This document shows, piece by piece, positions 41,668-64,000 of a stretch of DNA of 64,000 nucleotides. Below the pieces are notes generated by a model. The model was not told the origin of the DNA and ran no database searches. It was given only the letters and a program-made list of their open reading frames with translations. Each line of letters opens with the position of its first letter. Positions within the stretch are counted from its first letter, which is position 1. Source of the DNA: the human T2T-CHM13v2.0 reference genome, Homo sapiens; NCBI RefSeq assembly GCF_009914755.1, contig NC_060947.1; one strand, 5' to 3'. Made by a program: the position numbers and the translations under genes.

Positions 41668-42320
<653 letters not shown>

Positions 42321-43781
42321 TATTAATTAATAATAATAATTAAAGGATTATGCATAACAATAAAATTCAGAAAGATTTTTGATAGAGGTGATATGATTAT
42401 TAGCAAAATCATTTAAATTCGGAAAAGCGTAGGACTGCAAACTTAAAATTTTAGTCATTGTTCTCCTGAGATGGGAAAAGGCTGTGATTCTTCATCTGAA
42501 GAGTCTTATCTTGGGTACTACTTGCCATCAATGACGAATTGTTTAAATTTGAGGAGGAGCGAACTGAATTACATTGGTCTATGCCAACTAAGGCAGGTTA
42601 GATTGAAAAGATTGTTGACAAAAGGAAAAATTAAAAAGGGAAGACAGAGTATTTGGTTCAGTGAAAAGGCTACAACAGCGAGGACGACACTTGGGAACCA
42701 GAGCAGCACCTCGTGAACTGTCAGGAATACATCCACGACTTCAACAGACACCACACGGAAAGGCAGAAAGAGAGCACATTGACCAGAACAAACAGGTCCT
42801 CTCCCAACAATGCTAGGAAACAAATCTCCAGATCCACAAACAGCAGCTTTTCTAAGTCCTCTCCTAAGGCACCAGTGATTGGGAGAGATCACGAATCCAA
42901 AAACAGCCAGCTGTTTGCTGCCAGCCAGCAGTTCAGGAAGAACACAGCTCCGTCTCTCTGCAGCCAGATGAAAATGGACCTAGTGAAGTCAGGTATCAAG
43001 ATCCTCATGCCTAAGAGCCCCATTAAGCAGGACGCAGTGAATGGCTTTCAGAGTGAGAGCTCCAAAAAACTGGACCCCACAGAGCAGGGTCAGGAGGAAT
43101 GGTAGTACCCAAAGTGGCAGCGGAAAAGCCAGACAAAGCTTTATTGGGCCCTGGTACTGAGCAGGCCAGGATGGGGAGCAAGCCTGGATACACCTGCTAG
43201 TGCCTCAGGTGCATGGCCCCGTAAGTGCAGCCATGGCCACAGGCCTACTCGTTAACAGGAAAGCTACATCTACATTCATGGATGCATTAACAGCCAGTGG
43301 GACAACCAACATACAGACATCTGTTACAGCAGTAACTGTCAGCAAAAGGAAATTTATTGACAACAGAAGAGAACAGCCTTTTAACAAACGATTGCATTTC
43401 AGTGTGAGGCAAACAGAAAGTGCCTAAGGATACAGAGTTATTGTGGCCGGGACAAAAGATGGCTTCACCCACATCTTATTCACTAGATCAACAGGGAATA
43501 ACTCAGTAAATACAGCTGTAATGAAAAAAGTCTACCAGCTCTGACAACCACTGCTGATTACAGCAAGCTTGTACTGCTCAGCGCCTTTAACAGTGTCTTC
43601 TGTTGTGGACTTGACTTTATTTATTTTATGCAGTGTTTGACAGATGACAGAAAAAGAGAAAGCATTAAAATGGGAGAACCTATCAGAAACGTAGTGAATA
43701 ATCTATGGCCATATCACTCTGAAAGTGACAGAAAAAAAGAAAGTGTTAAATAGGCAGAAGCTAACAGAAACTTCGTGAATA

Positions 43782-43868
43782 ATCCCTGGCCATACCACCC
43801 GAAATAGGCACGATTTCTTCGGATATCAGAAGCTAAGCAGTATCTGCCCTGTATAGTGCATGGACACA
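43782..43868 (+). pseudogene. RNA5S: Tailless, 3'-truncated 5S rRNA retropseudogene (nt 1-~87) inside the CDYL retrocopy
   Basis: Colinear with 5S (GGCCATACCACCC; AGCTAAGCAG falls exactly at nt 50 = 43831); 16-bp TSD agaaacttcgtgaata (43766-43781) / aggaactttgtgaata (43869-43884). Confidence 0.85.
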
Positions 43869-44033
43869 AGGAACTTTGTGAATACTATTACTCCGTTCAA
43901 AAAACCTGTTACTGAAGTAAAAGAAGTTATCTGAAACATCGTGAATAATCTATGACCATACGACCCTGAATATGATAGAAAAAGAGAAAGCATTAAAATG
44001 GCAGAAGAGAAGCTACCAGAAACGTCGTACATA

Positions 44034-44137
44034 ATCTACGGCCATAGCACAGTGAACGCTCCAATCTCATCTGGTCACTGAAGTACAGAGTACACGAGAT
44101 TGCGCCCAGGGTACGGCCTCTTCACTACGTGGATGGG
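44034..44137 (+). pseudogene. RNA5S: 5S rRNA fragment carrying an internal inverted duplication (first copy of the arrayed form)
   Basis: ATCTACGGCCATAGCAC..GAACGC..ATCTCATCTG..GAAG[tacagagtacacgagattgcgc]CCAGGGTACGGCCT..TGGATGGGAG. Confidence 0.8.
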
Positions 44138-44964
44138 AGGAACTTCGTGAAGGCTATCATTTCACTCAAACTGAATATTATTGAAGCAGTCACTATCCCA
44201 GCCATTCGACTAGGAGCATCCGTATTGCCCCTTTATGATATGGTTTAGGCTAATCAAAAGACTTGGTTTCCAACAACCTCTTCTACCTCTGAGCAGATTC
44301 CAGACAGCTGATTTACCATTACGTTTCCGAAATCATGGGACGACCAGCTGCAAGCGAGACGATGCTCAGTGGGTTGAAACTGATCACACAGAAGGCATTT
44401 GGCAACGGCCTTCTCTCCCAGCTGTTTGGGTCCTGGACCTTCACTCAGGAAATTGGTGGCTCAGATCAAGAAGCTTGTCTCATGTAATCGAATAGTGCTG
44501 GAGGAATCCAAAGCCTTGGTGTGCTGCAACATGAAGAGGGATCTGGAACAGGCCAACGAGAGAACATGTGAAGTACTGAAGAAAATCTGGGGTTCTGCCC
44601 AAGGGTTGGACTCCATGTGAAAGGACTTAGAAAGGAAGATGAATGAGTTTCGAGTGTCAGGCTGCACACTGACCACATCGGGTTCCAGCTGAGAAGAACA
44701 CCATTGCTTCCATCTGTCCTTATCCATTCTCACAGCCTGAAACAAGCTCACTGGTAGCTTATGCTTGCAAGCAGGACTGGGAACATTCACGCTATTTATT
44801 CGGGAGTACTGACTCCAGAAAGTACAGCAACCTTGGACTGCTCAGCGCCATTGGTAGGGTCTTCCGTGGTGCACTTGGCCTTATTTATTTTTTACGACAT
44901 TTGACAGAGGGCAGAGAGAGAGCAAGCATTAAAACGGCAGAAGCTACTGGAAACGTCGTGAGCA

Positions 44965-45070
44965 ATCTACAGTCATACCACCGTGAACGCTCCCAATCTT
45001 GTCTGGTCTCTGAAGTACAGAGTAGATGCGATTGGGCCCAGGTTCGGGCCTGTTTCATTGTTGGATAGAA
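44965..45070 (+). pseudogene. RNA5S: Representative arrayed 5S rRNA-derived segment (one per monomer, 20 copies from 44965 to ~63675)
   Basis: ATCTACAGTCATACCACCGTGAACGCTCCCAATCTTGTCTG..GAAG...CAGGTTCGGGCCTG..TTGGATAGAAG versus 5S GTCTACGGCCATACCACCCTGAACGCGCCCGATCTCGTCTG..GAAG..CAGGGTCGGGCCTG..TTGGATGGGAG. Confidence 0.85.
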
Positions 45071-45750
45071 GGAACTTCCTGAATGCTTTGTTCCCCTTAA
45101 GCTGCGTATTGTTGAAGCACTCAATGGCCCAGCCATTCGACTAGGAGCATCCGTATTGCCTCTTTGTGATATGGTTTAGGCTAATGAAAAGACTTGGTTT
45201 CCAACACCCTCTTCTACCTCTGGGCAGATTCCAGATAGCTGATCTACCATTACGTTTCCGAAATCATGGGACGACCAGCTGCAAGCGAGACGATGCTCAG
45301 TGGGTTGAAACTGATCACACAGGAGGCATTTGGCAACAGCCTTCTCTCCCAGCTGTTTGGATCCTGGACCTTCAATCAGGAAATTGGTGGCTCAGATCAA
45401 GAAGCTTGTCTCATGTAATCGAATAGTGCTGGAGGAATCCAAAGCCTTGGTGTGCTCCAACATGAAGAGGGATCTGGAACAGGCCAACGAGAGAACATGT
45501 GAAGTACTGAAGAAAATCTGGGGTTCTGCCCAAGGGTTGGACTCCATGTGAAAGGACTTAGAAAGGAAGATGAATGAGTTTCGAGTGTCAGGCTGCACAC
45601 TGACCACATCGGGATCCAGCTGAGAAGAACACCATTGCTTCCGGCTGTCCTTCTTCATTCTCACAGCCTGAAACAAGCTCACTGGTAGCTTATGCTTGCA
45701 AGCAGGACCGAGAACATTCACGCTATTTATTCGGGAGTACTCTGGATAAA

Positions 45751-45825
45751 TCGTCCCATTATTTCGGAAATGTAATGCTAGGTCAGGTATCTGGAATCTT
45801 CCTGGAGGTAGAAGAGGGTATTGGA
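45751..45825 (-). repeat. Inverted 75-nt copy of monomer sequence (first of 8, in long monomers only)
   Basis: Reverse complement of 45200-45274, 66/75 identical by hand alignment. Confidence 0.93.
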
Positions 45826-48800
45826 TGGAAGGAACTTCGTGAATGCGATCATTGAACTCCAGAAAGTACACCAACCTTGTACTGCTCAGGGCCTTAGGTA
45901 GGGTCTTCTGTGGCGCACTTGACCTTATTTATGTTTTACAACGTTTGACAGAGGACAGAAAGAGAGCAAGCATTAAAAGGGCAAAAGCTACCAGAAACAT
46001 CGTGAACAATCTACAGCCATACCACCGTGAACGCTCCCAATCTCATCTGGCCTCTGAAGTACAGAGTAGAGGAGATTGGGCCCAGGTAGGGGCCTGTTTC
46101 ATAGTTGGATGGAAGGAACTTTGTGAATGCTATCATTTAACTTAAGCTGTCTATTACTAAACCAGTCAGCCGCCCAGCCATTCGACTAGGAGCATCCGTA
46201 TTGCCTCTTTGTGATATGGTTTAGGCTAATGAAAAGACTTGGATTCCAACACCCTCTTCTACCTCTGAGCAGATCCCAGATAGCTGATCTACCATTACGT
46301 TTCCGAAATCATGGGACGACCAGCTGCAAGCGAGACGATGCTCAGTGGGTTGAAACTGATCACTCAGGAGGCATTTGGCAACGGCCTTCTCTCCCAGCTG
46401 TTTGGGTCCTGGACCTTCACTCAGGAAATTGGTGGCTCAGATCAAGAAGCTTGTCTCATTTAATCGAATAGTGCTGGAGGAATCCAAAGCCTTGGTGTGC
46501 TGCAACATGAAGAGGGATCTGGAACAGGCCAACGAGAGAACATGTGAAGTACTGAAGAAAATCTGGGGTTCTGCCCAAGGGTTGGACTCCATGTGAAAGG
46601 ACTTAGAAAGGAAGATGAATGAGTTTCGAGTGTCAGGCTGCACACTGACCACATCGGGTTCCGGCTGAGAAGAACACCATTGCTTCCATCTGTCCTTATC
46701 CATTCTCACAGCCTGAAACAAGCTCACTGGTAGCTTATGCTTGCAAGCAGGACTGGGAACATTCACGCTATTTATTCGGGAGTACTGACTCCAGAAAGTA
46801 CAGCAACCTTGGACTCCTCAGCGCCATTGGTACGGTCTTCCGTGGTGCACTTGGCCTTATTTATTTTTTACGACATTTGACAGAGGACAGAGAGAGAGCA
46901 AGCATTAAAACGGCAGAAGCTACTGGAAACGTCGTGAACAATCTACTGTCATACCACCGTGAACGCTCCAAATCTTGTCTGGTCTCTGAAGTACAGAGTA
47001 GATGCGATTGGGTCCAGATTCGGGCCTGTTGCATTGTTGGATAGAAGGAACTTCCTGAATGCTATTGTTCAGCTTAAGCTGCGTATTGTTGAAGCACTCA
47101 ATGGCCCAGCCATTCGACTAGGAGCATCCGTATTGCCTCTTTGTGATATGGTTTAGGCTAATGAAAAGACTTGGTTTCCAACACCCTCTTCTACCTCTGG
47201 GCAGATTCCAGATAGCTGATCTACCATTACGTTTCCGAAATCATGGGACGACCAGCTGCAAGTGAGACGATGCTCAGTGGGTTGAAACTGATCACACAGG
47301 AGGCATTTGGCAACGGCCTTCTCTCCCAGCTGTTTGGAACCTGGACCTTCACTCAGGAAATTGGTGGCTCAGATCAAGAAGCTTGTCTCATGTAATCGAA
47401 TATTGCTGGAGGAATCCAAAGCCTTGGTGTGCTGCAACATGAAGAGGGATCTGGAACAGGCCAACGAGAGAACATGTGAAGTACTGAAGAAAATCTGGGG
47501 TTCTGCCCAAGGGTTGCACTCCATGTGAAAGGACTTAGAAAGGAAGATGAACGAGTTTCGAGTGTCAGGCTGCACACTGACCACATGGGGTTCCGGCTGA
47601 GAAGAACACCATTGCTTCCACCTGTCCTTATCCATTCTCACAGCCTGAGACAAGCTCACTGGTAGCTTATGCTTCCAAGCAGGACTAGGAACATTCACGC
47701 TATTTATTTGGGAGTACTGACTCCAGAAAGTACAGGAAGCTTGGACTGCTCGGCGCCATTGGTAGGGTCTTCCGTGGTGCACTTGGCCTTATTTATTTTT
47801 TACGACATTTGACAGAGGGCAGAGAGAGAGCAAGCATTAAAACGGCAGAAGCTACTGGAAACGTCGTGAGCAATCTACAGTCATACCACCGTGAACGCTC
47901 CCAATCTTCTCTGGTCTCTGAAGTACAGAGTAGATGCAATTGGGCCCAGGTTCGGGCCTGTTGCATTGTTGGATAGAAGGAACTTCCTGAATGCTTTGTT
48001 CCGCTTAAGCTGCGTATTGTTGAAGCACTCAATGGCCCAGCCATTCGACTAGGAGCATCCGTATTGCCTCTTTGTGATATGGTTTAGGCTAATGAAAAGA
48101 TTTGGTTTCCAACACGCTCTTCTACCTGTGGGCAGATTCCACATAGCTGATCTACCATTACGTTTCCGAAATCATGGGACGACCAGCTGCAAGCGAGACG
48201 ATGCTCAGTGGGTTGAAACTGATCACACAGGAGGCATTTGGCAACAGCCTTCTCTCCCAGCTGTTTGGATCCTGGACCTTCAATCAGGAAATTGGTGGCT
48301 CAGATCAAGAAGCTTGTCTCATGTAATTGAATAGTGCTGGAGGAATCCAAAGCCTTGGTGTGCTGCAACATGAAGAGGGATCTGGAACAGGCCAACGAGA
48401 GAACATGTGAAGTACTGAAGAAAATCTGGGGTTCTGCCCAAGGGTTGGACTCCATGTGAAAGGACTTAGAAAGGAAGATGAATGAGTTTTGAGTGTCAGG
48501 CTGCACACTGACACATCGGGATCCAGCTGAGAAGAACACCATTGCTTCCGGCTGTCCTTCTTCATTCTCACAGCCTGAAACAAGCTCACTGGTAGCTTAT
48601 GCTTGCAAGCAGGACCGGGAACATTCACGCTATTTATTCGGGAGTACTCTGGATAAATCATTCCATTATTTCGGAAATGTAATGCTAGGTCAGGTATCTG
48701 GAATCTTCCTGGAGGTAGAAGAGGGTATTGGATGGAAGGAACTTCGTGAATGCGATCATTGAACTCCAGAAAGTACACCAACCTTGTACTGCTCAGGGCC

Positions 48801-51800
48801 TTAGTTAGGGTCTTCTGTGGCGCACTTGACCTTATTTATGTTTTACAACGTTTGACAGAGGACAGAAAGAGAGCAAGCATTAAAAGGGCAAAAGCTACCA
48901 GAAGCATCGTGAACAATCTACAGCCATACCACCATGAACGCTCCCAATCTCGTCTGGCCTCTGAAGTACAGAGTAGAGGAGATTGGGCCCAGGTAGGGGC
49001 CTGTTTCATAGTTGGATGGAAGGAACTTTGTGAATGCTATCATTTAACTTAAGCTGTCTATTACTAAACCAGTCAGCCGCCCAGCCATTCGACTAGGAGC
49101 ATCCGTATTGCCTCTTTGTGATATGGTTTAGGCTAATGAAAAGACTTGGTTTCCAACACCCTCTTCTACCTCTGAGCAGATCCCACATAGCTGATCTACC
49201 ATTACGTTTCCGAAATCATGGGACGACCAGCTGCAAGCGAGACGATGCTCAGTGGGTTGAAACTGATCACTCAGGAGGCAGTTGGCAACGGCCTTCTCTT
49301 CCAGCTCTTTGGGTCCTGGACCTTCACTCAGGAAATTGGTGGCTCAGATCAAGAAGCTTGTCTCATGTAATCGAATAGTGCTGGAGGAATCCAAAGCCTT
49401 GGTGTGCTGCAACATGAAGAGGGATCTGGAACAGGCCAACGAGAGAACATGTGAAGTACTGAAGAAAATCTGGGGTTCTGCCCAAGGGTTGGACTCCATG
49501 TGAAAGGACTTAGAAAGGAAGATGAATGAGTTTCGAGTGTCAGGCTGCACACTGACCACATCGGGTTCCGGCTGAGAAGAACACCATTGCTTCCATCTGT
49601 CCTTATCCATTCTCACAGCCTGAAACAAGCTCACTGGTAGCTTATGCTTGCAAGCAGGACTGGGAACATTCACGCTATTTATTCGGGAGTACTGACTCCA
49701 GAAAGTACAGCAACCTTGGACAGCTCAGCGCCATTGGTACGGTCTTCCGTGGTGCACTTGGCCTTATTTATTTTTTGCGACATTTGACAGAGGACAGAGA
49801 GAGAGCAAGCATTAACACGGCAGAAGCTACTGGAAACGTCCTGAACAATCTACAGTCATACCACCGTGAACGCTCCCAATCTTGTCTGGTCTCTGAAGTA
49901 CAGAGTAGATGCGATTGGGTCCAGGTTCGGGCCTGTTTCATTGTTGGATAGAAGGAACTTCCTGAATTCTATTGTTCAGCTTAAGCTGCATATTGTTGAA
50001 GCACTCAATGGCCCAGCCATTCGACTAGGAGCATCCGTATTGCCTCTTTGTGATATGGTTTAGGCTAATGAAAAGACTTGGTTTCCAACACCCTCTTCTA
50101 CCTCTGGGCAGATTCCAGATAGCTGATCTACCATTACGTTTCCGAAATCATGGGACGACCAGCTGCAAGTGAGACGATGCTCAGTGGGTTGAAACTGATC
50201 ACACAGGAGGCATTTGGCAACGGCCTTCTCTCCCAGCTGTTTGGAACCTGGACCTTCACTCAGGAAATTGGTGGCTCAGATCAAGAAGCTTGTCTCATGT
50301 AATCGAATATTGCTGGAGGAATCCAAAGCTTTGGTGTGCTGCAACATGAAGAGGGATCTGGAACAGGCCAACGAGAGAACATGTGAAGTACTGAAGAAAA
50401 TCTGGGGTTCTGCCCAAGGGTTGGACTCCATGTGAAAGGACTTAGAAAGGAAGATGAACGAGTTTCGAGTGTCAGGCTGCACACTGACCACATGGGGTTC
50501 CGGCTGAGAAGAACACCATTGCTTCCACCTGTCCTTATCCATTCTCACAGCCTGAGACAAGCTCACTGGTAGCTTATGCTTCCAAGCAGGACTAGGAACA
50601 TTCACGCTATTTATTTGGGAGTACTGACTCCAGAAAGTACAGGAAGCTTGGACTGCTCGGCGCCATTGGTAGGGTCTTCCGTGGTGCACTTGGCCTTATT
50701 TATTTTTTACGACATTTGACAGAGGGCAGAGAGAGAGCAAGCATTAAAACGGCAGAAGCTACTGGAAACGTCGTGAGCAATCTACAGTCATACCACCATG
50801 AACGCTCCCAATCTTCTCTGGTCTCTGAAGTACAGAGTAGATGCAATTGGGCCCAGGTTCGGGCCTGTTTCATTGTTGGATAGAAGGAACTTTCTGAATG
50901 CTTTCTTCCGCTTAAGCTGCGTATTGTTGAAGCACTCAATGGCCCAGCCATTGGACTAGGAGCATCCGTATTGCCTCTTTGTGATATGGTTTAGGCTAAT
51001 GAAAAGACTTGGTTTCCAACACCCTCTTCTACCTCTGGGCAGATTCCAGATAGCTGATCTACCATTACGTTTCCGAAATCATGGGACGACCAGCTGCAAG
51101 CGAGACGATGCTCAGTGGGTTGAAACTGATCACACAGGAGGCATTTGGCAACGGCCTTCTCTCCCAGCTGTTTGGATCCTGGACCTTCAATCAGGAAATT
51201 GGTGGCTCAGATCAAGAAGCTTGTCTCATGCAATCGAATAGTGCTGGAGGAATCCAAAGCCTTGGTGTGCTGCAACATGAAGAGGGATCTGGAACAGGCC
51301 AACGAGAGAACATGTGAAGTACTGAAGAAAATCTGGGGTTCTGCCCAAGGGTTGGACTCCATGTGAAATGACTTAGAAAGGAAGATGAATGAGTTTCGAG
51401 TGTCAGGCTGCACACTGACCACATCGGGTTCCAGCTGAGAAGAACACCATTGCTTCCGGCTGTACTTCTTCATTCTCACAGCCTGAAAAAAGCTTACTGG
51501 TAGCTTATGCTTGCAAGCAGGACCGGGAACATTCACGCTATTTATTCGGGAGTACTCTGGATAAATCATCCCATTATTTCGGAAATGTAATGCTAGGTCA
51601 GGTATCTGGAATCTTCCTGGAGGTAGAAGAGGGTATTGGATGGAAGGAACTTCGTGAATGCGATCATTGAACTCCAGAAAGTACACCAACCTTGTACTGC
51701 TCAGGGCCTCAGGTAGGGTCTTCTGTGGCGCACTTGACCTTATTTATGTTTTACAACGTTTGACAGAGGACAGAAAGAGAGCAAGCATTAAAAGGGCAAA

Positions 51801-54800
51801 AGCTACCAGAAACATCGTGAACAATCTACAGCCATACCACCGTGAACGCTCCCAATCTCGTCTGGCCTCTGAAGTACAGAGTAGAGGAGATTGGGCCCAG
51901 GTAGGGGCCTGTTTCATAGTTGGATGGAAGGAACTTTGTGAATGCTATCATTTAACTTAAGCTGTCTATTACTAAACCAGTCAGCCGCCCAGCCATTCGA
52001 CTAGGAGCATCCGTATTGCCTCTTTGTGATATGGTTTAGGCTAATGAAAAGACTTGGTTTCCAACACCCTCTTCTACCTCTGGGCAGATTCCAGATAGCT
52101 GATCTACCATTACGTTTCCGAAATCATGGGACGACCAGCTGCAAGCGAGACGATGCTCAGTGGGTTGAAACTGATCACACAGGAGGCATTTGGCAACGGC
52201 CTTCTCTCCCAGCTGTTTGGATCCTGGACCTTCAATCAGGAAATTGGTGGCTCAGATCAAGAAGCTTGTCTCATGTAATCGAATAGTGCTGGAGGAATCC
52301 AAAGCCTTGGTGTGCTGCAACATGAAGAGGGATCTGGAACAGGCCAACGAGAGAACATGTGAAGTACTGAAGAAAATCTGGGGTTCTGCCCAAGGGTTGG
52401 ACTCCATGTGAAAGGACTTAGAAAGGAAGATGAACGAGTTTCGAGTGTCAGGCTGCACACTGTCCACATCGGGTTCCGGCTGAGAAGAACACCATTGCTT
52501 CCATCTGTCCTTATCCATTCTCACAGCCTGAAACAAGCTCACTGGTAGCTTATGCTTGCAAGCAGGACTGGGAACATTCACGCTATTTATTCGGGAGTAC
52601 TGACTCCAGAAAGTACAGCAACCTTGGACAGCTCAGCGCCATTGGTACGGTCTTCCGTGGTGCACTTGGCCTTATTTATTTTTTGCGACATTTGACAGAG
52701 GACAGAGAGAGAGCAAGCATTAAAACGGCAGAAGCTACTGGAAACGTCCTGAACAATCTACAGTCATACCACCGTGAATGCTCCCAATCTTGTCTGGTCT
52801 CTGAAGTACAGAGTAGATGCGATTGGGTCCAGGTTCGGGCATGTTTCATTGTTGGATAGAAGGAACTTCCTGAATTCTATTGTTCAGCTTAAGCTGCGTA
52901 TTGTTGAAGCACTCAATGGCCCAGCCATTCGACTAGGAGCATCCGTATTGCCTCTTTGTGATATGGTTTAGGCTAATGAAAAGACTTGGTTTCCAACACC
53001 CTCTTCTACCTCTGGGCAGATTCCAGATAGCTGATCTACCATTACGTTTCCGAAATCATGGGACGACCAGCTGCAAGTGAGACGATGCTCAGTGGGTTGA
53101 AACTGATCACACAGGAGGCATTTGGCAACGGCCTTCTCTCCCAGCTGTTTGGAACCTGGACCTTCACTCAGGAAATTGTTGGCTCAGATCAAGAAGCTTG
53201 TCTCATGTAATCGAATATTGCTGGAGGAATCCAAAGCCTTGGTGTGCTGCAACATGAAGAGGGATCTGGAACAGGCCAACGAGAGAACATGTGAAGTACT
53301 GAAGAAAATCTGGGGTTCTGCCCAAGGGTTGGACTCCATGTGAAAGGACTTAGAAAGGAAGATGAACGAGTTTCGAGTGTCAGGCTGCACACTGACCACA
53401 TGGGGTTCCGGCTGAGAAGAACACCATTGCTTCCACCTGTCCTTATCCATTCTCACAGCCTGAGACAAGCTCACTGGTAGCTTATGCTTCCAAGCAGGAC
53501 TAGGAACATTCACGCTATTTATTTGGGAGTACTGACTCCAGAAAGTACAGGAAGCTTGGACTGCTCGGCGCCATTGGTAGGGTCTTCCGTGGTGCACTTG
53601 GCCTTATTTATTTTTTACGACATTTGACAGAGGGCAGAGAGAGAGCAAGCATTAAAACGGCAGAAGCTACTGGAAACGTCGTGAGCAATCTACAGTCATA
53701 CCACCGTGAACGCTCCCAATCTTCTCTGGTCTCTGAAGTACAGAGTAGATGCAATTGGGCCCAGGTTCGGGCCTGTTTCATTGTTGGACAGAAGGAACTT
53801 TCTGAATGCTTTGTTCCGCTTAAGCTGCGTATTGTTGAAGCACTCAATGGCCCAGCCATTGGACTAGGAGCATCCGTATTGCCTCTTTGTGATATGGTTT
53901 AGGCTAATGAAAAGACTTGGTTTCCAACACCCTCTTCTACCTCTGGGCAGATTCCAGATAGCTGATCTACCATTACGTTTCCGAAATCATGGGACGACCA
54001 GCTGCAAGCGAGACGATGCTCAGTGGGTTGAAACTGATCACACAGGAGGCATTTGGCAACGGCCTTCTCTCCCAGCTGTTTGGATCCTGGACCTTCAATC
54101 AGGAAATTGGTGGCTCAGATCAAGAAGCTTGTCTCATGTAATCGAATAGTGCTGGAGGAATCCAAAGCCTTGGTGTGCTGCAACATGAAGAGGGATCTGG
54201 AACAGGCCAACGAGAGAACATGTGAAGTACTGAAGAAAATCTGGGGTTCTGCCCAAGGGTTGGACTCCATGTGAAATGACTTAGAAAGGAAGATGAATGA
54301 GTTTCGAGTGTCAGGCTGCACACTGACCACATCGGGTTCCAGCTGAGAAGAACACCATTGCTTCCGGCTGTACTTCTTCATTCTCACAGCCTGAAACAAG
54401 CTTACTGGTAGCTTATGCTTGCAAGCAGGACCGGGAACATTCACGCTATTTATTCGGGAGTACTCTGGATAAATCGTCCCATTATTTCGGAAATGTAATG
54501 CTAGGTCAGGTATCTGGAATCTTCCTGGAGGTAGAAGAGGGTATTGGATGGAAGGAACTTCGTGAATGCGATCATTGAACTCCAGAAAGTACACCAACCT
54601 TGTACTGCTCAGGGCCTCAGGTAGGGTCTTCTGTGGCACACTTGACCTTATTTATGTTTTACAACGTTTGACAGAGGACAGAAAGAGAGCAAGCATTAAA
54701 AGGGCAAAAGCTACCAGAAACATCGTGAACAATCTACAGCCATACCACCGTGAACGCTCCCAATCTCGTCTGGCCTCTGAAGTACAGAGTAGAGGAGATT

Positions 54801-57800
54801 GGGCCCAGGTAGGGGCCTGTTTCATAGTTGGATGGAAGGAACTTTGTGAATGCTATCATTTAACTTAAGCTGTCTATTACTAAACCAGTCAGCCGCCCAG
54901 CCATTCGACTAGGAGCATCCGTATTGCCTCTTTGTGATATGGTTTAGGCTAATGAAAAGACTTGGTTTCCAACACCCTCTTCTACCTCTGGGCAGATTCC
55001 AGATAGCTGATCTACCATTACGTTTCCGAAATCATGGGACGACCAGCTGCAAGTGAGACGATGCTCAGTGGGTTGAAACTGATCACACAGGAGGCATTTG
55101 GCAACGGCCTTCTCTCCCAGCTGTTTGGAACCTGGACCTTCACTCAGGAAATTGTTGGCTCAGATCAAGAAGCTTGTCTCATGTAATCGAATATTGCTGG
55201 AGGAATCCAAAGCCTTGGTGTGCTGCAACATGAAGAGGGATCTGGAACAGGCCAACGAGAGAACATGTGAAGTACTGAAGAAAATCTGGGGTTCTGCCCA
55301 AGGGTTGGACTCCATGTGAAAGGACTTAGAAAGGAAGATGAACGAGTTTCGAGTGTCAGGCTGCACACTGACCACATGGGGTTCCGGCTGAGAAGAACAC
55401 CATTGCTTCCACCTGTCCTTATCCATTCTCACAGCCTGAGACAAGCTCACTGGTAGCTTATGCTTCCAAGCAGGACTAGGAACATTCACGCTATTTATTT
55501 GGGAGTACTGACTCCAGAAAGTACAGGAAGCTTGGACTGCTCGGCGCCATTGGTAGGGTCTTCCGTGGTGCACTTGGCCTTATTTATTTTTTACGACATT
55601 TGACAGAGGGCAGAGAGAGAGCAAGCATTAAAACGGCAGAAGCTACTGGAAACGTCGTGAGCAATCTACAGTCATACCACCGTGAACGCTCCCAATCTTC
55701 TCTGGTCTCTGAAGTACAGAGTAGATGCAATTGGGCCCAGGTTCGGGCCTGTTTCATTGTTGGATAGAAGGAACTTTCTGAATGCTTTCTTCCGCTTAAG
55801 CTGCGTATTGTTGAAGCACTCAATGGCCCAGCCATTGGACTAGGAGCATCCGTATTGCCTCTTTGTGATATGGTTTAGGCTAATGAAAAGACTTGGTTTC
55901 CAACACCCTCTTCTACCTCTGGGCAGATTCCAGATAGCTGATCTACCATTACGTTTCCGAAATCATGGGACAACCAGCTGCAAGCGAGACGATGCTCAGT
56001 GGGTTGAAACTGATCACACAGGAGGCATTTGGCAACGGCCTTCTCTCCCAGCTGTTTGGATCCTGGACCTTCAATCAGGAAATTGGTGGCTCAGATCAAG
56101 AAGCTTGTCTCATGCAATCGAATAGTGCTGGAGGAATCCAAAGCCTTGGTGTGCTGCAACATGAAGAGGGATCTGGAACAGGCCAACGAGAGAACATGTG
56201 AAGTACTGAAGAAAATCTGGGGTTCTGCCCAAGGGTTGGACTCCATGTGAAATGACTTAGAAAGGAAGATGAATGAGTTTCGAGTGTCAGGCTGCACACT
56301 GACCACATCGGGTTCCAGCTGAGAAGAACACCATTGCTTCCGGCTGTACTTCTTCATTCTCACAGCCAGAAACAAGCTTACTGGTAGCTTATGCTTGCAA
56401 GCAGGACCGGGAACATTCACGCTATTTATTCGGGAGTACTCTGGATAAATCATCCCATTATTTCGGAAATGTAATGCTAGGTCAGGTATCTGGAATCTTC
56501 CTGGAGGTAGAAGAGAGTATTGGATGGAAGGAACTTCGTGAATGCGATCATTGAACTCCAGAAAGTACACCAACCTTGTACTGCTCAGGGCCTCAGGTAG
56601 GGTCTTCTGTGGCGCACTTGACCTTATTTATGTTTTACAACGTTTGACAGAGGACAGAAAGAGAGCAAGCATTAAAAGGGCAAAAGCTACCAGAAACATC
56701 GTGAACAATCTACAGCCATACCACCGTGAACGCTCCCAATCTCGTCTGGCCTCTGAAGTACAGAGTAGAGGAGATTGGGCCCAGGTAGGGGCCTGTTTCA
56801 TAGTTGGATGGAAGGAACTTTGTGAATGCTATCATTTAACTTAAGCTGTCTATTACTAAACCAGTCAGCTGCCCAGCCATTCGACTAGGAGCATCCGTAT
56901 TGCCTCTTTGTGATATGGTTTAGGCTAATGAAAAGACTTGGTTTCCAACACCCTCTTCTACCTCTGAGCAGATCCCACATAGCTGATCTACCATTACGTT
57001 TCCGAAATCATGGGACGACCAGCTGCAAGCGAGACGATGCTCACTGGGTTGAAACTGATCACTCAGGAGGCAGTTGGCAACGGCCTTCTCTCCCAGCTGT
57101 TTGGGTCCTGGACCTTCACTCAGGAAATTGGTGGCTCAGATCAAGAAGCTTGTCTCATGTAATCGAATAGTGCTGGAGGAATCCAAAGCCTTGGTGTGCT
57201 GCAACATGAAGAGGCATCTGGAACAGGCCAACGAGAGAACATGTGAAGTACTGAAGAAAATCTGGGGTTCTGCCCAAGGGTTGGACTCCATGTGAAAGGA
57301 CTTAGAAAGGAAGATGAATGAGTTTCGAGTGTCAGGCTGCACACTGACCATGTCGGGTTCCGGCTGAGAAGAACACCATTGCTTCCATCTGTCCTTATCC
57401 ATTCTCACAGCCTGAAACAAGCTCACTGGTAGCTTATGCTTGCAAGCAGGACTGGGAACATTCACGCTATTTATTCGGGAGTACTGACTCCAGAAAGTAC
57501 AGCAACCTTGGACTGCTCAGCGCCATTGGTACGGTCTTCCGTGGTGCACTTGGCCTTATTTATTTTTTACGACATTTGACAGAGGACAGAGAGAGAGCAA
57601 GCATTAAAACGGCAGAAGCTACTGGAAACGTCGTGAACAATCTACAGTCATACCACCGTGAACGCTCCCAATCTTGTCTGGTCTCTGAAGTACAGAGTAG
57701 ATTCGATTGGGCCCAGGTTCGGGCCTGTTTCATTGTTGGATAGAAGGAACTTCCTGAATTCTATTGTTCAGCTTAAGCTGCGTATTGTTGAAGCACTCAA

Positions 57801-60800
57801 TGGCCCAGCCATTCGACTAGGAGCATCCGTATTGCCTCTTTGTGATATGGTTTAGGCTAATGAAAAGACTTGGTTTCCAACACCCTCTTCTACCTCTGGG
57901 CAGATTCCAGATAGCTGATCTACCATTACGTTTCCGAAATCATGGGACGACCAGCTGCAAGTGAGACGATGCTCAGTGGGTTGAAACTGATCACACAGGA
58001 GGCATTTGGCAACGGCCTTCTCTCCCAGCGGTTTGGAACCTGGACCTTCACTCAGGAAATTGGTGGCTCAGATCAAGAAGCTTGTCTCATGTAATCGAAT
58101 ATTGCTGGAGGAATCCAAAGCCTTGGTGTGCTGCAACATGAAGAGGGATCTGGAACAGGCCAACGAGAGAACATGTGAAGTACTGAAGAAAATCTGGGGT
58201 TCTGCCCAAGGGTTGGACTCCATGTGAAAGGACTTAGAAAGGAAGATGAACGAGTTTCGAGTGTCAGGCTGCACACTGACCACATGGGGTTCCGGCTGAG
58301 AAGAACACCATTGCTTCCACCTGTCCTTATCCATTCTCACAGCCTGAGACAAGCTCACTGGTAGCTTATGCTTCCAAGCAGGACTAGGAACATTCACGCT
58401 ATTTATTTGGGAGTACTGACTCCAGAAAGTACAGGAAGCTTGGACTGCTCGGCGCCATTGGTAGGGTCTTCCGTGGTGCACTTGGCCTTATTTATTTTTT
58501 ACGACATTTGACAGAGGGCAGAGAGAGAGCAAGCATTAAAACGGCAGAAGCTACTGGAAACGTCGTGAACAATCTACAGTCATACCACCATGAACGCTCC
58601 CAATCTTGTCTGGTCTCTGAAGTACAGAGTAGATGCGATTGGGCCCAGGTTCGGGCCTGTTTCATTGTTGGATAGAAGGAACTTCCTGAATGCTTTGTTC
58701 CGCTTAAGCTGCGTATTGTTGAAGCACTCAATGGCCCAGCCATTCGACTAGGAGCATCCGTATTGCCTCTTTGTGATATGGTTTAGGCTAATGAAAAGAC
58801 TTGGTTTCCAACACCCTCTTCTACCTCTGAGCAGATTCCAGATAGCTGATCTACCATTACGTTTCCGAAATCATGGGACGACCAGCTGCAAGCGAGACGA
58901 TGCTCAGTGGGTTGAAACTGATCACACAGGAGGCATTTGGCAACAGCCTTCTCTCCCAGCTGTTTGGATCCTGGACCTTCAATCAGGAAATTGGTGGCTC
59001 AGATCAAGAAGCTTGTCTCATGTAATCGAATAGTGCTGGAGGAATCCAAAGCCTTGGTGTGCTGCAACATGAAGAGGGATCTGGAACAGGCCAACGAGAG
59101 AACATGTGAAGTACTGAAGAAAATCTGGGGTTCTGCCCAAGGGTTGGACTCCATGTGAAAGGACTTAGAAAGGAAGATGAATGAGTTTCGAGTGTCAGGC
59201 TGCACACTGACCACATCGGGTTCCAGCTGAGAAGAACACCATTGCTTCCGGCTGTCCTTCTTCATTCTCACAGCCTGAAACAAGCTCACTGGTAGCTTAT
59301 GCTTGCAAGCAGGACCGGGAACATTCACGCTATTTATTCGGGAGTACTCTGGATAAATCGTCCCATTATTTCGGAAATGTAATGCTAGGTCAGGTATCTG
59401 GAATCTTCCTGGAGGTAGAAGAGGGTATTGGATGGAAGGAACTTCGTGAATGCGATCATTGCACTCCAGAAAGTACACCAACCTTGTACTGCTCAGGGCC
59501 TCAGGTAGGGTCTTCTGTGGCGCACTTGACCTTACTTATGTTTTACAACGTTTGACGGAGGACAGAAAGAGAGCAAGCATTAAAAGGGCAAAAGCTACCA
59601 GAAACATCGTGAACAATCTACAGCCATACCACCGTGAACGCTCCCAATCTCGTCTGGCCTCTGAAGTACAGAGTAGAGGAGATTGGGCCCAGGTAGGGGC
59701 CTGTTTCATAGTTGGATGGAAGGAACTTTGTGAATGCTATCATTTAACTTAAGCTGTCTATTACTAAACCAGTCAGCCGCCCAGCCATTCGACTAGGAGC
59801 ATCCGTATTGCCTCTTTGTGATATGGTTTAGGCTAATGAAAAGACTTGGTTTCCAAAACCCTCTTCTACCTCTGAGCAGATCCCACATAGCTGATCTACC
59901 ATTACGTTTCCGAAATCATGGGACGACCAGCTGCAAGTGAGACGATGCTCAGTGGGTTGAAACTGATCACTCAGGAGGCAGTTGGCAACGGCCTTCTCTC
60001 CCAGCTGTTTGGATCCTGGACCTTCACTCAGGAAATTGGTGGCTCAGAACAGGAAGCTTGTCTCATGTAATCGAATAGTGCTGGAGAAATCCAAAGCCTT
60101 GGTGTGCTGCAACATGAAGAGGGATCTGGAACAGGCCAACGAGAGAACATGTGAAGTACTGAAGAAAATCTGGGGTTCTGCCCAAGGGTTGGACTCCATG
60201 TGAAAGAACATAGAAAGGAAGATGAATGAGTTTCGATTGTCAGGCTGCACACTGACCACGTCGGGTTCCGGCTGAGAAGAACACCATTGCTTCCATCTGT
60301 CCTTATCCATTCTCAAAGCCTGAAACAAGCTCACTGGTAGCTTATGCTTGCAAGCAGGACTGGGAACATTCACGCTATTTATTCGGGAGTACTGACTCCA
60401 GAAAGTACAGCAACCTTGGACTGCTCAGCGCCATTCGTACGGTCTTCCGTGGTGCACTTGGCCTTATTTATTTTTTACGACATTTGACAGAGTGCAGAGA
60501 GAGAGCAAGCATTAAAACGGCAGAAGCTACTGGAAACGTCGTGAACAATGTACAGTCATACCACCGTGAACGCTCCCAATCTTGTCTGGTCTCTGAAGTA
60601 CAGAGTAGATGCGATTGGGCCCAGGTTGGGGCCTGTTTCATTGTTGGATAGAAGGAACTTCCTGAATGCTTTGTTCCCCTTAAGCTGCGTATTGTTGAAG
60701 CACTCAATGGCCCAGCCATTCGACCAGGAGCATCCGTATTGCCTCTTTGTGATATGGTTTAGGCTAATGAAAAGACTTGGTTTCCAACACCCTCTTCTAC

Positions 60801-63800
60801 CTCTGGGCAGATTCCAGATAGCTGATCTACCATTACGTTTCCGAAATCATGGGACGACCAGCTGCAAGCGAGACGATGCTCAGTGGGTTGAAACTGATCA
60901 CACAGGAGGCATTTGGCAACGGCCTTCTCTCCCAGCTGTTTGGATCCTGGACCTTCACTCAGGAAATTGGTGGCTCAGATCAAGAAGCTTGTCTCATCTA
61001 ATCGAATAGTGCTGGAGGAATCCAACACCTTGGTGTGCTGCAACATGAAGAGGGATCTGGAACAGGCCAACGAGAGAACATGTGAAGTACTGAAGAAAAT
61101 CTGGGGTTCTGCCCAAGGGTTGGACTCCATGTGAAAGGACTTAGAAAGGAAGATGAATGAGTTTCGAGTGTCAGGCTGCACACTGACCACATCGGGATCC
61201 AGCTGAGAAGAACACCATTGCTTCCGGCTGTCCTTCTTCATTCTCACAGCCTGAAACAAGCTCACTGGTAGCTTATGCTTGCAAGCAGGACCGGGAACAT
61301 TCACGCTATTTATTCGGGAGTACTCTGGATAAATCATCCCATTATTTCGGAAATGTAATGCTAGGTCAGGTATCTGGAATCTTCCTGGAGGTAGAAGAGG
61401 GTATTGGATGGAAGGAACTTCGTGAATGCGATCATTGAACTCCAGAAAGTACACCAACCTTGTACTGCTCAGGGCCTCAGGTAGGGTCTTCTGTGGCGCA
61501 CTTGACCTTATTTATGTTTTACAACGTTTGACAGAGGACAGAAAGAGAGCAAGCATTAAAAGGGCAAAAGCTACCAGAAACATCGTGAACAATCTACAGC
61601 CATACCACCGTGAACGCTCCCAATCTCGTCTGGCCTCTGAAGTACAGAGTAGAGGAGATTGGGCCCAGGTAGGGGCCTGTTTCATAGTTGGATGGAAGGA
61701 ACTTTGTGAATGCTATCATTTAACTTAAGCTGTCTATTACTAAACCAGTCAGCCGCCCAGCCATTCGACTAGGAGCATCCGTATTGCCTCTTTGTGATAT
61801 GGTTTAGGCTAATGAAAAGACTTGGTTTCCAACACCCTCTTCTACCTCTGAGCAGATCCCACATAGCTGATCTACCATTACGTTTCCGAAATCATGGGAC
61901 GACCAGCTGCAAGCGAGACGATGCTCACTGGGTTGAAACTGATCACTCAGGAGGCAGTTGGCAACGGCCTTCTCTCCCAGCTGTTTGGGTCCTGGACCTT
62001 CACTCAGGAAATTGGTGGCTCAGAACAGGAAGCTTGTCTCATGTAATCGAATAGTGCTGGAGGAATCCAAAGCCTTCGTGTGCTGCAACATGAAGAGGGA
62101 TCTGGAACAGGCCAACGAGAGAACATGTGAAGTACTGAAGAAAATCTGGGGTTCTGCCCAAGGGTTGGACTCCATGTGAAAGGACTTAGAAAGGAAGATG
62201 AACGAGTTTCGAGTGTCAGGCTGCACACTGACCACATGGGGATCCGGCTGAGAAGAACACCATTGCTTCCACCTGTCCTTATCCATTCTCACAGCCTGAG
62301 ACAAGCTCACTGGTAGCTTATGCTTCCAAGCAGGACTAGGAACATTCACGGTATTTATTCGGGAGTACTGACTCCGGAAAGTACAGGAAGCTTGGACTGC
62401 TCGGCGCCATTGGTAGGGTCTTCCGTGGTGCACTTGGCCTTATTTATTTTTTACGACATTTGACAGAGGGCAGAGAGAGAGCAAGCATTAAAACGGCAGA
62501 AGCTACTGGAAACGTCGTGAGCAATCTACAGTCATACCACCGTCAACGCTCCCAATCTTGCCTGGTCTCTGAAGTACAGAGTAGATGCAATTGGGCCCAG
62601 GTTCGGGCCTGTTTCATTGTTGGATAGAAGGAACTTCCTGAATGCTTTGTTCAGCTTAAGCTGCGTATTGTTGAAGCACTCAATGGCCCAGCCATTCGAC
62701 TAGGAGCATCCGTATTGCCTCTTTGTGATATGGTTTAGGCTAATGAAAAGACTTGGTTTCCAACACCCTCTTCTACCTCTGGGCAGATTCCAGATAGCTG
62801 ATCTACCATTACGTTTCCGAAATCATGGGACGATCAGCTGCAAGCGAGACGATGCTCAGTGGGTTGAAACTGATCACACAGGAGGCATTTGGCAACGGCC
62901 TTCTCTCCCAGCTGTTTGGATCCTGGACCTTCACTCAGGAAATTGGTGGCTCAGATCAAGAAGCTTGTCTCATGTAATCGAATAGTGCTGGAGGAATCCA
63001 ACACCTTGGTGTGCTGCAACATGAAGAGGGATCTAGAACAGGCCAACGAGAGAACATGTGAAGTACTGAAGAAAATCTGGGGTTCTGCCCAAGGGTTGGA
63101 CTCCATGTGAAAGGACTTAGAAAGGAAGATGAATGAGTTTCGAGTGTCAGGCTGCACACTGACCACATCGGGATCCAGCTGAGAAGAACACCATTGCTTC
63201 CGGCTGTCCTTCTTCATTCTCACAGCCTGAAACAAGCTCACTGGTAGCTTATGCTTGTAAGCAGGAGCGGGAACATTCACGCTATTTATTCGGGAGTACT
63301 CTGGATAAATCATCCCATTATTTCGGAAATGTAATGCTAGGTCAGGTATCTGGAATCTTCCTGGAGGTAGAAGAGGGTATTGGATGGAAGGAACTTCGTG
63401 AATGCGGTCATTGAACTCCAGAAAGTACACCAACCTTGTACTGCTCAGGGCCTTAGGTAGGGTCTTCTGTGGCGCACTTGACCTTATTTATGTTTTACAA
63501 CGTTTGACAGAGGACAGAAAGAGAGCAAGCATTAAAAGGGCAAAAGCTACCAGAAACATCGTGAACAATCTACAGCCATACCACCGTGAACGCTCCCAAT
63601 CTCGTCTGGCCTCTGAAGTACAGAGTAGAGGAGATTGGGCCCAGGTAGGGGCCTGTTTCATAGTTGGATGGAAGGAACTTTGTGAATGCTATCATTTAAC
63701 TTAAGCTGTCTATTACTAAACCAGTCAGCCGCCCAGCCATTCGACTAGGAGCATCCGTATTGCCTCTTTGTGATATGGTTTAGGCTAATGAAAAGACTTG

Positions 63801-64000
63801 GTTTCCAACACCCTCTTCTACCTCTGAGCAGATCCCACATAGCTGATCTACCATTACGTTTCCGAAATCATGGGACGACCAGCTGCAAGCGAGACGATGC
63901 TCACTGGGTTGAAACTGATCACTCAGGAGGCAGTTGGCAACGGCCTTCTCTCCCAGCTGTTTGGGTCCTGGACCTTCACTCAGGAAATTGGTGGCTCAGA

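What the first reader, a model, noticed from the sequence alone, without database searches (positions are those of the whole stretch)
44985..45045. 5S fragment remodelled into a pre-miRNA-sized stem-loop in every monomer
Seen: the CTAAG of 5S box A is replaced by ~22 nt (tacagagtagatgcgattgggc or tacagagtagaggagattgggc) that is an inverted copy of the preceding 5S sequence. The pairs are CCCAATC(44992-98)/GATTGGG(45030-36), TGTCT/AGATG with wobbles, and CTCTG/CAGAG around an AAGTA loop, closed by GAAC/GTTC, for ~60 nt in total. Long-type monomers have a perfect CCCAATCTC/GAGATTGGG stem. The copy at 43782 lacks the insertion, so it arose at this locus before amplification. Inference: a de novo hairpin multiplied ~20-fold, reminiscent of tandem primate miRNA clusters such as C19MC. 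It could equally be a neutral fold-back replication error. The insertion also breaks the Pol III internal promoter.
Basis: partly seen in the sequence, partly recalled or inferred. Interest (0 to 1): 0.72.

Follow-up and report, generated by a model that had tools for sequence, protein, structure and literature searches.

The report
Decaying fold-back hairpin in pseudogene array
A small hairpin made by an inverted copying error inside a dead 5S rRNA fragment was carried along when a CDYL pseudogene piece was amplified about 25 times on the human X chromosome, and nothing in the sequence suggests it is a working microRNA gene.

Summary
Each of 25 tandem monomers (20 in the window, 5 beyond it) carries a 5S-rRNA-like fragment. 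In it, the 5 bases at 5S nt 52-56 are replaced by 23 bases that pair with the preceding 5S bases to form a ~61-nt stem-loop. A sister copy at 43788-43864 lacks the insertion, so it arose locally before amplification.

The microRNA reading is not supported.
- The robust stem is about 20 bp with a 5-nt loop. True tandem miRNA hairpins (C19MC control) have ~35-bp stems.
- The GAAC/GTTC closure exists only in S-type monomers and dissolves once flanks are added.
- Among 12 distinct variants plus a degenerate edge copy, 0 of 25 pairs show a compensatory change, and variable sites are random with respect to pairing.
- A majority-rule reconstruction folds better (-27 to -32 kcal/mol) than every living copy (-14.5 to -26.1), which indicates decay.
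- The hairpin is no more conserved than its neighbours (0.92 vs 0.93-0.97). C19MC hairpins are conserved islands (0.84 vs 0.56/0.48).
- No Rfam miRNA family matches, and no paper was found.

Best reading: a neutral template-switch (fold-back) mutation, amplified as a passenger in a macrosatellite built from the 3' part of a CDYL processed pseudogene. Small-RNA data could not be examined.

The parts
42598..43640 (+). 5' non-repeated part of a CDYL processed pseudogene (chromodomain through the first half of the enoyl-CoA-hydratase-like domain)
   Evidence: matches three separate stretches of chr6 (C6:4.76-4.81 Mb), covering query 3-666, 665-918 and 921-1032 at 83-89% identity. These are contiguous here, so the copy is intronless. 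The translation shows CDYL-like frames with stops.
43640..44030 (+). Pre-array zone of short partial duplications of the CDYL/5S junction. It includes the 5S-like copy without the insertion (43788-43864).
   Evidence: TRF finds an 81-bp period at 43645-43798. BLAST aligns 5S nt 7-83 to 43788-43864 ungapped. Alignment A1 shows no extra bases at the site.
44054..44113 (+). Degenerate L-like edge copy of the hairpin; it has the insertion
   Evidence: It folds at -13 kcal/mol with z = -0.01 (stretch 44042-44110).
44964..45083 (+). 5S-rRNA-derived insert (5S nt ~2-101 plus a net 18 nt) within the CDYL pseudogene frame of the first S monomer
   Evidence: PDB 2gtr_A residues 50-95 align to query residues 3-48 and residues 96-261 to query 89-254. 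That leaves 40 extra codons exactly between CDYL residues 95 and 96. Searches align the insert to the 5S gene L012.
44985..45045 (+). The reported 61-nt stem-loop (first S-type monomer)
   Evidence: MFE -22.9 kcal/mol, z = -3.15. The core pairs 14-46 and 19-41 have probability 1.00 in all contexts tried; the outer pair 1-61 falls to 0.13 and 0.03 with 40 and 70 nt of flank.
45016..45038 (+). The 23-nt segment that replaces 5S nt 52-56; it is an inverted copy of the upstream arm
   Evidence: BLAST break between 45015 and 45039; the reverse complement matches the monomer's own upstream arm. In the L type 13 nt match with 1 mismatch (4 of 5000 shuffles as good); in the S type 409 of 5000.
44983..64000 (+). 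Tandem array of 14 S and 11 L monomers (spacing 932 or 1043-1045 bp), 20 of them in the window. It continues to about window position 69340. Hairpins start at 44985, 46029, 46961, 47893, 48936, 49868, 50800, 51844, 52776, 53708, 54752, 55684, 56728, 57660, 58592, 59636, 60568, 61612, 62544 and 63588, each 61 nt long.

Best explanation
The hairpin is a neutral by-product of one intra-strand template-switch (fold-back) replication error.

Proposed history:
1. A CDYL mRNA was retro-copied to Xp22.
2. A 3'-truncated 5S rRNA sequence (nt ~2-101) was inserted cleanly into that pseudogene.
3. The junction was duplicated locally.
4. In one duplicate the nascent strand folded back just after 5S nt 51 and copied about 20 bases of itself in reverse complement (5S nt ~27-47). 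It then returned to the template. This replaced 5 nt with 23 nt and created a near-perfect inverted repeat.
5. That copy diverged into L and S forms. These were amplified as dimers and trimers into a ~25-kb array.

The hairpin has been decaying by ordinary substitutions, many at CpG sites, in every lineage since. It is a passenger of the amplification, not its cause.

Shown directly: the insertion, its inverted relation to the upstream arm, its absence from a sister copy, the lack of pairing constraint and the decay.

Inferred: the replication mechanism, the order of events and the neutrality.
For: 1. Insertion and parent state. 5S nt 52-56 are replaced by 23 nt in all 25 monomers and in the edge copy. 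The sister copy at 43788-43864, which shares the same CDYL/5S junction, is ungapped against 5S.

2. Inverted origin. In the L type the reverse complement of the insert matches the monomer's own upstream arm over 13 nt with 1 mismatch (4 of 5000 shuffles). Against the true 5S gene 59 of 5000 shuffles score as high, and the forward orientation scores lower, 10 vs 18.

3. Decay. Majority rule over S, L and the edge copy gives 14 contiguous pairs and -27 to -32 kcal/mol. The 25 living copies give -14.5 to -26.1.

4. No pairing constraint. 0 of 25 pairs have changes on both sides. 89.5% of cells are paired, and 500 of 500 shuffles reach that value. Variable sites fall on 11 of 100 paired vs 2 of 22 unpaired column-slots, p = 1.

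5. No conservation island. Mean column identity is 0.923 in the hairpin, 0.938 in the rest of the 5S piece, 0.932 in the next 200 columns and 0.973 in the CDYL part. S and L consensus differ at 6 of 61 hairpin sites vs 105 of 856 elsewhere, not significant.

6. Positive control, from 20 of the 41 plus-strand mir-515-family hits above cut-off. C19MC hairpins score 0.843 against flanks of 0.559 and 0.476, and their 87-nt MFE is -35 to -52. Three of 28 pairs are compensatory.

7. Uniqueness. In the whole T2T genome the hairpin with its insertion occurs only at this locus. The 10 hits elsewhere cover only the 5' 5S part.

8. Base rate. Only 57 of 6,054 (0.9%) human-lineage template-switch hairpins of suitable size are annotated miRNAs (PMC10710096, section 9 read).
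Against: - The inverted-copy signal is weak in the S type (409 of 5000 shuffles against its own arm; 1006 and 2463 of 5000 against 5S) and in the edge copy (836 of 5000). The inference therefore leans on the L type and on the reconstruction.
- The two arms differ by a 2-nt gap, so the event was not a single clean copy, or it was followed by an indel.
- Power to see covariation is low. Copies within a type are 96-99.6% identical and only 13 distinct rows were available.
- The core ~20-bp stem is still intact in 20 of the 25 copies, and L-type copies fold at -26.1 kcal/mol. A Dicer-type substrate is therefore not structurally excluded.
- No expression data of any kind were available, so absence of function is inferred, not shown.
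- No other primate genome could be examined.
Confidence: 0.85

Rival explanations
1. The hairpins are real small-RNA precursors: a young, tandemly amplified miRNA or endo-shRNA cluster, like C19MC on a small scale. They would be transcribed with the pseudogene array (sense) or with the antisense lncRNA.
For: - There are 25 copies. The core stem is stable on both strands: + strand -22.9 and -23.5, minus strand -20.9 and -24.4 kcal/mol.
- The overall size is that of a pre-miRNA.
- Template-switch hairpins are a documented source of young primate miRNAs (PMC10710096; abstract and sections 5 and 9 read).
- The annotated 3' end of the minus-strand lncRNA LOC107985634 (window 64407) lies 12 nt after a minus-strand AATAAA, about 113 nt downstream of an antisense hairpin copy.
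- A RefSeq enhancer feature overlaps two monomers (hub annotation, not tested).
Against: - The core stem is about 20 bp and the loop 5 nt. The stated preference is a 35-bp stem and a loop of 10 nt or more (PMC10710096 introduction). C19MC control hairpins have MFE of -35 to -52 kcal/mol.
- The outer closure is unstable or absent.
- There are no compensatory changes and the substitutions break pairs.
- The hairpin is not a conservation island.
- Living copies fold worse than the reconstruction.
- Rfam 15 gives only chance-level miRNA hits: mir-58 at 15.6 bits vs a 76-bit cut-off (E 1.1) and MIR408 at 9.8 bits vs 64. There were none in 42500-48500 at E up to 10.
- A text search for a 15-nt stretch of the 3' arm found 0 papers.
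Confidence: 0.05
2. The 23-nt segment is an unrelated insertion, filler DNA or slippage product, and its pairing with the upstream bases is coincidental.
For: - For S-type monomers the inverted match is not significant (409 of 5000 shuffles).
- Hairpins of equal energy occur by chance in the flanking 42 kb: 104 of 5592 windows.
Against: - L-type: a 13-nt match with 1 mismatch, reached by 4 of 5000 shuffles.
- The majority-rule state restores 14 contiguous pairs.
- The pairing partner is immediately adjacent, with only a 5-nt loop between the arms. This is the geometry expected of a fold-back.
Confidence: 0.05
3. The snap-back was made by reverse transcriptase while the 5S RNA was being copied. 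In that case the hairpin came in with the 5S insertion rather than by DNA replication at the locus.
For: The 5S piece looks like a captured RNA-derived fragment: it is a clean insertion between CDYL residues 95 and 96 and is truncated at the 3' end. Reverse transcriptases are known to template-switch (recalled, not tested).
Against: The copy at 43788-43864 shares the same CDYL/5S junction but keeps the uninterrupted 5S bases at the site. The insertion therefore came after integration and after the first local duplication.
Confidence: 0.03
4. The inverted repeat acts at the DNA level, as a cruciform or fork-stalling site that promoted or maintains the tandem amplification.
For: Every monomer carries it, and the array has a higher-order S-L / S-S-L structure that implies repeated unequal exchange.
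Against: - The arms are short (about 20 bp, imperfect).
- Monomer boundaries and the S/L length difference lie in the CDYL 3'-UTR-like part, not at the hairpin.
- The CDYL part is the most homogenised (0.973), not the hairpin.
- There is no test of DNA structure here.
Confidence: 0.02

Closest known systems
Template-switch mutations (TSMs) that create hairpins de novo (Monttinen, Frilander and Loytynoja 2023, PMC10710096)
   Same: A short stretch is replaced by the reverse complement of adjacent sequence in one event. This instantly gives a near-perfect stem. A parent state without the change is available (the 43788 sister copy). The fate is the common one for such hairpins: 99.1% of suitable TSM hairpins are not annotated miRNAs.
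   Different: Here the product was then amplified about 25-fold inside a macrosatellite, and it lies in a 5S-derived fragment inside a pseudogene. The strict TSM test (ancestral reconstruction across species; an inverted fragment of 15 nt or more that explains 5 or more mismatches) could not be run. The present arms match only with a 2-nt gap.
C19MC, the primate chr19 tandem miRNA cluster (Rfam mir-515, RF00639)
   Same: There are tens of tandem copies of a unit that contains a stem-loop.
   Different: C19MC hairpins have ~35-bp stems (87-nt MFE -35 to -52). They are conservation islands (0.84 vs 0.56/0.48) and show compensatory pairs (3 of 28). The chrX hairpin has a stem of about 20 bp and a 5-nt loop. 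It shows no island (0.92 vs 0.93-0.97) and 0 of 25 compensatory pairs.
5S rRNA pseudogenes or fragments
   Same: 5S nt 2-51 match at 80-86% identity (E down to 1.3e-11) and nt 57-89 match more weakly. The same 5' part matches 10 other dispersed loci in the genome.
   Different: The fragment is 3'-truncated near nt 101 and interrupted at nt 52-56. It fails the Rfam 5S model (12-12.9 bits vs 38). It sits inside a CDYL retrocopy and is amplified with it.
Macrosatellites built from tandemly duplicated gene or pseudogene fragments
   Same: The units are about 1 kb with a higher-order S-L / S-S-L organisation. Identity within a type is 96-99.6%, and the array spans about 25 kb.
   Different: The unit is the 3' part of a CDYL processed pseudogene with a 5S insert. 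I found no description of it: 0 papers for LOC442443 and nothing relevant.

Membership tests
Canonical pri-miRNA (Drosha/DGCR8 substrate) | Stem of about 35 bp flanked by single-stranded RNA | tested here: not met
   The core stem is about 19-21 bp. The isolated 61-mer has 25 pairs at most. The outer pair 1-61 has probability 0.13 and 0.03 with 40 and 70 nt of flank in the S type and 0.00 in the L type. C19MC control hairpins show ~35-bp stems. The criterion is quoted from the PMC10710096 introduction.
Canonical pri-miRNA (Drosha/DGCR8 substrate) | Unstructured apical loop of 10 nt or more | tested here: not met
   The loop AAGUA is 5 nt in all 25 copies, with AUGUA in one.
Canonical pri-miRNA (Drosha/DGCR8 substrate) | Discrete ~22-nt products from both arms with 2-nt 3' offsets | not testable with these tools
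   No small-RNA or CLIP data were on hand. A text search for a 15-nt arm string found 0 papers; supplements were not searched.
Known miRNA family (Rfam 15) | Score at or above the family gathering threshold | tested here: not met
   No miRNA hit at gathering threshold over the whole window. None at E up to 10 in 42500-48500. On short stretches only mir-58 (15.6 vs 76 bits) and MIR408 (9.8 vs 64 bits) appear.
Tandem miRNA cluster of the C19MC kind | Hairpin more conserved among paralogous units than its flanks; pairing kept by compensatory change | tested here: not met
   Hairpin 0.923 vs neighbours 0.932-0.973, and 0 of 25 pairs compensatory. The C19MC control gives 0.843 vs 0.559/0.476 and 3 of 28 compensatory pairs.
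Template-switch mutation (TSM) | The changed segment is the reverse complement of adjacent sequence (15 nt or more, explaining 5 or more differences), with a parent state that lacks it | tested here: inconclusive
   A parent-like copy without the change is present. In the L type 13 nt match with 1 mismatch, followed by a further 5 nt after a 2-nt gap (sequence, read by eye); 4 of 5000 shuffles score as high as the 13-nt match. The S type is not significant (409 of 5000). The reconstruction gives 14 contiguous pairs. No cross-species ancestral reconstruction was possible.
5S rRNA gene (Rfam RF00001) | Covariance-model score of 38 bits or more | tested here: not met
   12.9 bits and 12.0 bits. 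True 5S genes on chr1 score 112-116 bits.
5S rRNA-derived sequence (homology only) | Significant sequence similarity to a genomic 5S gene | tested here: met
   BLAST of L012 5S against the array: nt 2-51 at 80-86% identity, E 1.3e-11 to 1e-6, in all 25 monomers and the edge copy.
CDYL processed pseudogene | Parent exons contiguous without introns; protein-level match to CDYL with disabling stops | tested here: met
   three chr6 stretches are contiguous here at 83-89% identity. PDB 2gtr_A (CDYL) at E 2.3e-57, with 7 stops read as X (count).

The most novel reading that the evidence does not exclude
The 25 hairpins, on the sense strand or on the antisense strand within the terminal exon of lncRNA LOC107985634, are cut by Dicer as endogenous short-hairpin substrates without Drosha. 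They would then yield a human- or ape-specific multi-copy small RNA born from a template switch inside a 5S fragment. That would be a caught-in-the-act case of one fold-back error being turned into a dosage-amplified small-RNA locus.
Probability: 0.04. Interest if true: 0.6.

Novelty: new member of a known kind. Interest (0 to 1): 0.15.

Why it matters
As it stands it matters little. It is one more template-switch hairpin, of which tens of thousands are reported in the primate lineage (PMC10710096). It is notable only because the parent state survives next door and because the product was amplified 25-fold. That makes it a tidy textbook illustration of how a fold-back error creates a stem and how that stem then decays when nothing selects for it.

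It also documents an apparently undescribed ~25-kb macrosatellite on Xp22. The array is built from the 3' part of a CDYL retrocopy plus a 5S fragment.

If small RNAs were found from it, it would become an example of de novo small-RNA birth followed by copy-number amplification.

Tried and rejected
- Rfam at gathering threshold on the whole window found only an SRP/Alu-type hit at 41946-42316. At E up to 10 on 6 kb there was no 5S or miRNA hit. On the un-inserted copy alone there was only a chance PK-repZ hit.
- TRF missed the array because its period exceeds 500 bp. The repeat finder recovered it.
- My first structure string for the covariation count was out of register. I discarded it and redid the count.
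- Literature searches found no description of the array or of small RNAs from it:
  - LOC442443: 0 papers.
  - macrosatellite / Xp22 / TBL1X: nothing relevant among the 10 of 69 papers listed.
  - CDYL / pseudogene / tandem repeat / Xp22: nothing relevant among the 12 of 26 listed.
  - 5S pseudogene / small RNA / Dicer / hairpin: nothing specific among the 12 listed.
  - A 15-nt arm string: 0 papers.
  - Only titles and abstract starts of those listings were seen, and supplements were not searched.
- ORF scan of three monomers: only 70-100-aa ORFs, not followed up.
- Poly(A) hexamers occur on both strands in nearly every monomer. This is a motif count only and was not used as evidence.
- No other primate genome is reachable with these tools, so age and orthology were not tested.

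Full report
**What is at the coordinates**

Window 44985-45045 folds as one stem-loop. CCCAATC (44992-98) pairs with GATTGGG (45030-36). UGUCUG pairs with UAGAUG, with G-U wobbles. CUCUG pairs with CAGAG around a 5-nt loop, AAGUA. The MFE is -22.9 kcal/mol, z is -3.15, and 1 of 200 shuffles folds as well.

The anchor motif occurs 20 times on the + strand of the window, where 0.18 matches are expected. The window's genome (T2T-CHM13, chrX) is searchable. There the array continues for 5 more monomers, to about window position 69340.

There are 25 monomers in all, 14 of S type and 11 of L type. They are spaced 932 or 1043-1045 bp apart in S-L and S-S-L higher-order units. A degenerate L-like edge copy lies at 44054-44113.

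**Is it 5S, and is there an insertion?**

I took a real 5S gene from the same genome by searching with RF00001 (L012, 114.6 bits). I then compared it with the locus.

- BLAST aligns 5S nt 2-51 to every monomer at 80-86% identity, with E values down to 1.3e-11.
- The match resumes at 5S nt 57 (nt 64 in L-type monomers), 23 bases further on: 45015 to 45039 in the first monomer.
- So 5S nt 52-56 are replaced by 23 nt, a net gain of 18.
- The copy at 43788-43864 aligns to 5S nt 7-83 without a gap.
- That copy has the same upstream CDYL junction. It is therefore a sister of the array copies that kept the parent state.

The Rfam 5S model scores only 12-12.9 bits against a 38-bit cut-off. These are dead fragments.

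**What the array is**

The unit is the 3' part of a CDYL processed pseudogene.

- The non-repeated 5' part (42598-43640) matches three separate chr6 stretches at 83-89% identity. These are contiguous here.
- A monomer translated with stops read as X matches the CDYL structure 2gtr_A at E 2.3e-57.
- In that alignment CDYL residues 50-95 and 96-261 are separated by exactly 40 extra codons (44964-45083). This is the 5S-like piece.
- So a 3'-truncated 5S sequence (nt ~2-101) was inserted cleanly into the retrocopy, and the region was later duplicated in tandem.

S and L monomers differ by about 10% around the hairpin. They are almost identical over the CDYL part.

**Origin of the insertion**

The evidence for an inverted copy differs by monomer type.

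- In L monomers the reverse complement of the 23 nt matches the monomer's own upstream arm over 13 nt with 1 mismatch. Only 4 of 5000 shuffles score as high. A further 5 nt match after a 2-nt gap.
- Against the true 5S gene, 59 of 5000 shuffles reach the L-type score. The forward orientation scores 10 against 18.
- In S monomers and the edge copy the signal has eroded: 409 of 5000 for S against its own arm; 1006 and 2463 of 5000 for two S monomers and 836 of 5000 for the edge copy against 5S.
- A majority rule over S, L and the edge copy gives 14 contiguous pairs and -27 to -32 kcal/mol. That is better than any of the 25 living copies, which give -14.5 to -26.1 across 12 distinct variants.

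This is what a fold-back (intra-strand template-switch) error followed by neutral decay would leave. The mechanism is described in PMC10710096 (abstract and sections 5 and 9 read).

**Is it constrained as an RNA hairpin?**

No test gave a sign of constraint.

- On 13 distinct rows, 0 of 25 pairs carry changes on both sides. Twelve pairs depart only by unpaired cells. The 89.5% of cells that pair is reached by 500 of 500 shuffles.
- Within-type variable sites fall on 11 of 100 paired and 2 of 22 unpaired column-slots, p = 1.
- Several of these changes are at CpG sites, read from the sequences.
- S and L consensus differ at 6 of 61 hairpin sites against 105 of 856 elsewhere, not significant.
- Mean column identity is 0.923 in the hairpin. 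It is 0.938 in the rest of the 5S piece, 0.932 in the next 200 columns and 0.973 in the CDYL part.

**Positive control**

I used 20 of the 41 plus-strand mir-515-family hits above cut-off.

- Hairpin identity is 0.843, against flanks of 0.559 and 0.476.
- The 87-nt MFE is -35 to -52 kcal/mol, with ~35-bp stems.
- Three of 28 pairs show compensatory change.

The chrX array shows none of these signatures.

**Is it a plausible processing substrate?**

- With 40-70 nt of flank, only the core pairs keep a probability near 1 (pairs 14-46 and 19-41).
- The GAAC/GTTC closure falls to 0.13 and 0.03 in the S type. It is absent from the L type, which ends in GTAG.
- The four copies of the 47893 type refold entirely.
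- That leaves about 20 bp with a 5-nt loop. The stated preference is a 35-bp stem and a loop of 10 nt or more (PMC10710096 introduction).
- As a bare fold it is not rare. 104 of 5592 61-nt windows in the non-array 42 kb fold at -22.9 or lower, 18 of them as single hairpins with 20 or more pairs.
- Rfam 15 gives no miRNA family match above chance.
- The whole genome holds the inserted form only at this locus.

**What remains open**

- I had no small-RNA, CLIP or transcription data and no other primate genome. Absence of function is therefore inferred.
- The hairpin also folds on the minus strand (-20.9 and -24.4 kcal/mol).
- The annotated 3' end of the minus-strand lncRNA LOC107985634 (window 64407) lies 12 nt after a minus-strand AATAAA and about 113 nt downstream of an antisense hairpin copy. 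At least one antisense copy may therefore be transcribed. I could not see the exon structure.
- The published base rate is that 0.9% (57 of 6,054) of suitable template-switch hairpins are annotated miRNAs. Given that rate and the negative structural and evolutionary tests, I put the small-RNA reading at about 4-5%.

**Verdict**

The object is a new member of a known kind. It is a template-switch hairpin, here preserved next to its parent state and amplified as a passenger in an apparently undescribed CDYL-pseudogene/5S macrosatellite. No description was found; only listings were seen, and supplements were not searched.

Noticed in passing
window 44964-45083 (and the same place in every monomer): The 5S-like piece sits exactly between CDYL residues 95 and 96 of PDB 2gtr_A, with no CDYL sequence lost. 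It stops near 5S nt 101. This looks like a clean capture of a 3'-truncated small-RNA copy inside a retrocopy, not a standard 5'-truncated retro-insertion.
   Followed up: partly
L015 2407-2580 (= window 64407-64580), minus strand: The annotated 3' end of lncRNA LOC107985634 falls 12 nt after a minus-strand AATAAA inside an S monomer. It lies about 113 nt downstream of the antisense hairpin copy. The model's last exon may therefore be array sequence that contains one hairpin. The exons were not available.
   Followed up: partly
window 43640-44030: The proximal edge of the array is a patchwork of short partial duplications of the CDYL/5S junction. TRF finds an 81-bp period at 43645-43798. There are three truncated 5S heads, at about 43702, 43788 and 43949. 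The L-monomer upstream part also holds a second fragment resembling the 3' part of the monomers' 5S-like piece (likeness judged by eye).
   Followed up: partly
window alignment columns 450-945 of the monomers (e.g. 45130-45620): S and L monomers are about 10% diverged around the hairpin but nearly identical over the CDYL C-terminal part (column identity 0.973). This suggests recent homogenisation of that segment only, or mosaic units.
   Followed up: no
L015 7340-7400 (about window 69340-69400): The array ends in sequence that looks like a CDYL 3'-UTR, followed by an A-rich AAATAAAATAAAAT stretch. This is probably the remnant of the retrocopy's poly(A) end.
   Followed up: no
window 41946-42316: This stretch matches Metazoa_SRP (RF00017, 91.9 bits) just upstream of the pseudogene. 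It is most likely an Alu-type element, which is my reading and was not tested. An (ATAG)10 microsatellite lies inside it at 42113-42152.
   Followed up: no
window 45922-47122: A RefSeq 'enhancer' feature (hub annotation) covers one L monomer and part of one S monomer of the array, including two hairpin copies. Its basis is unknown and it was not examined.
   Followed up: no
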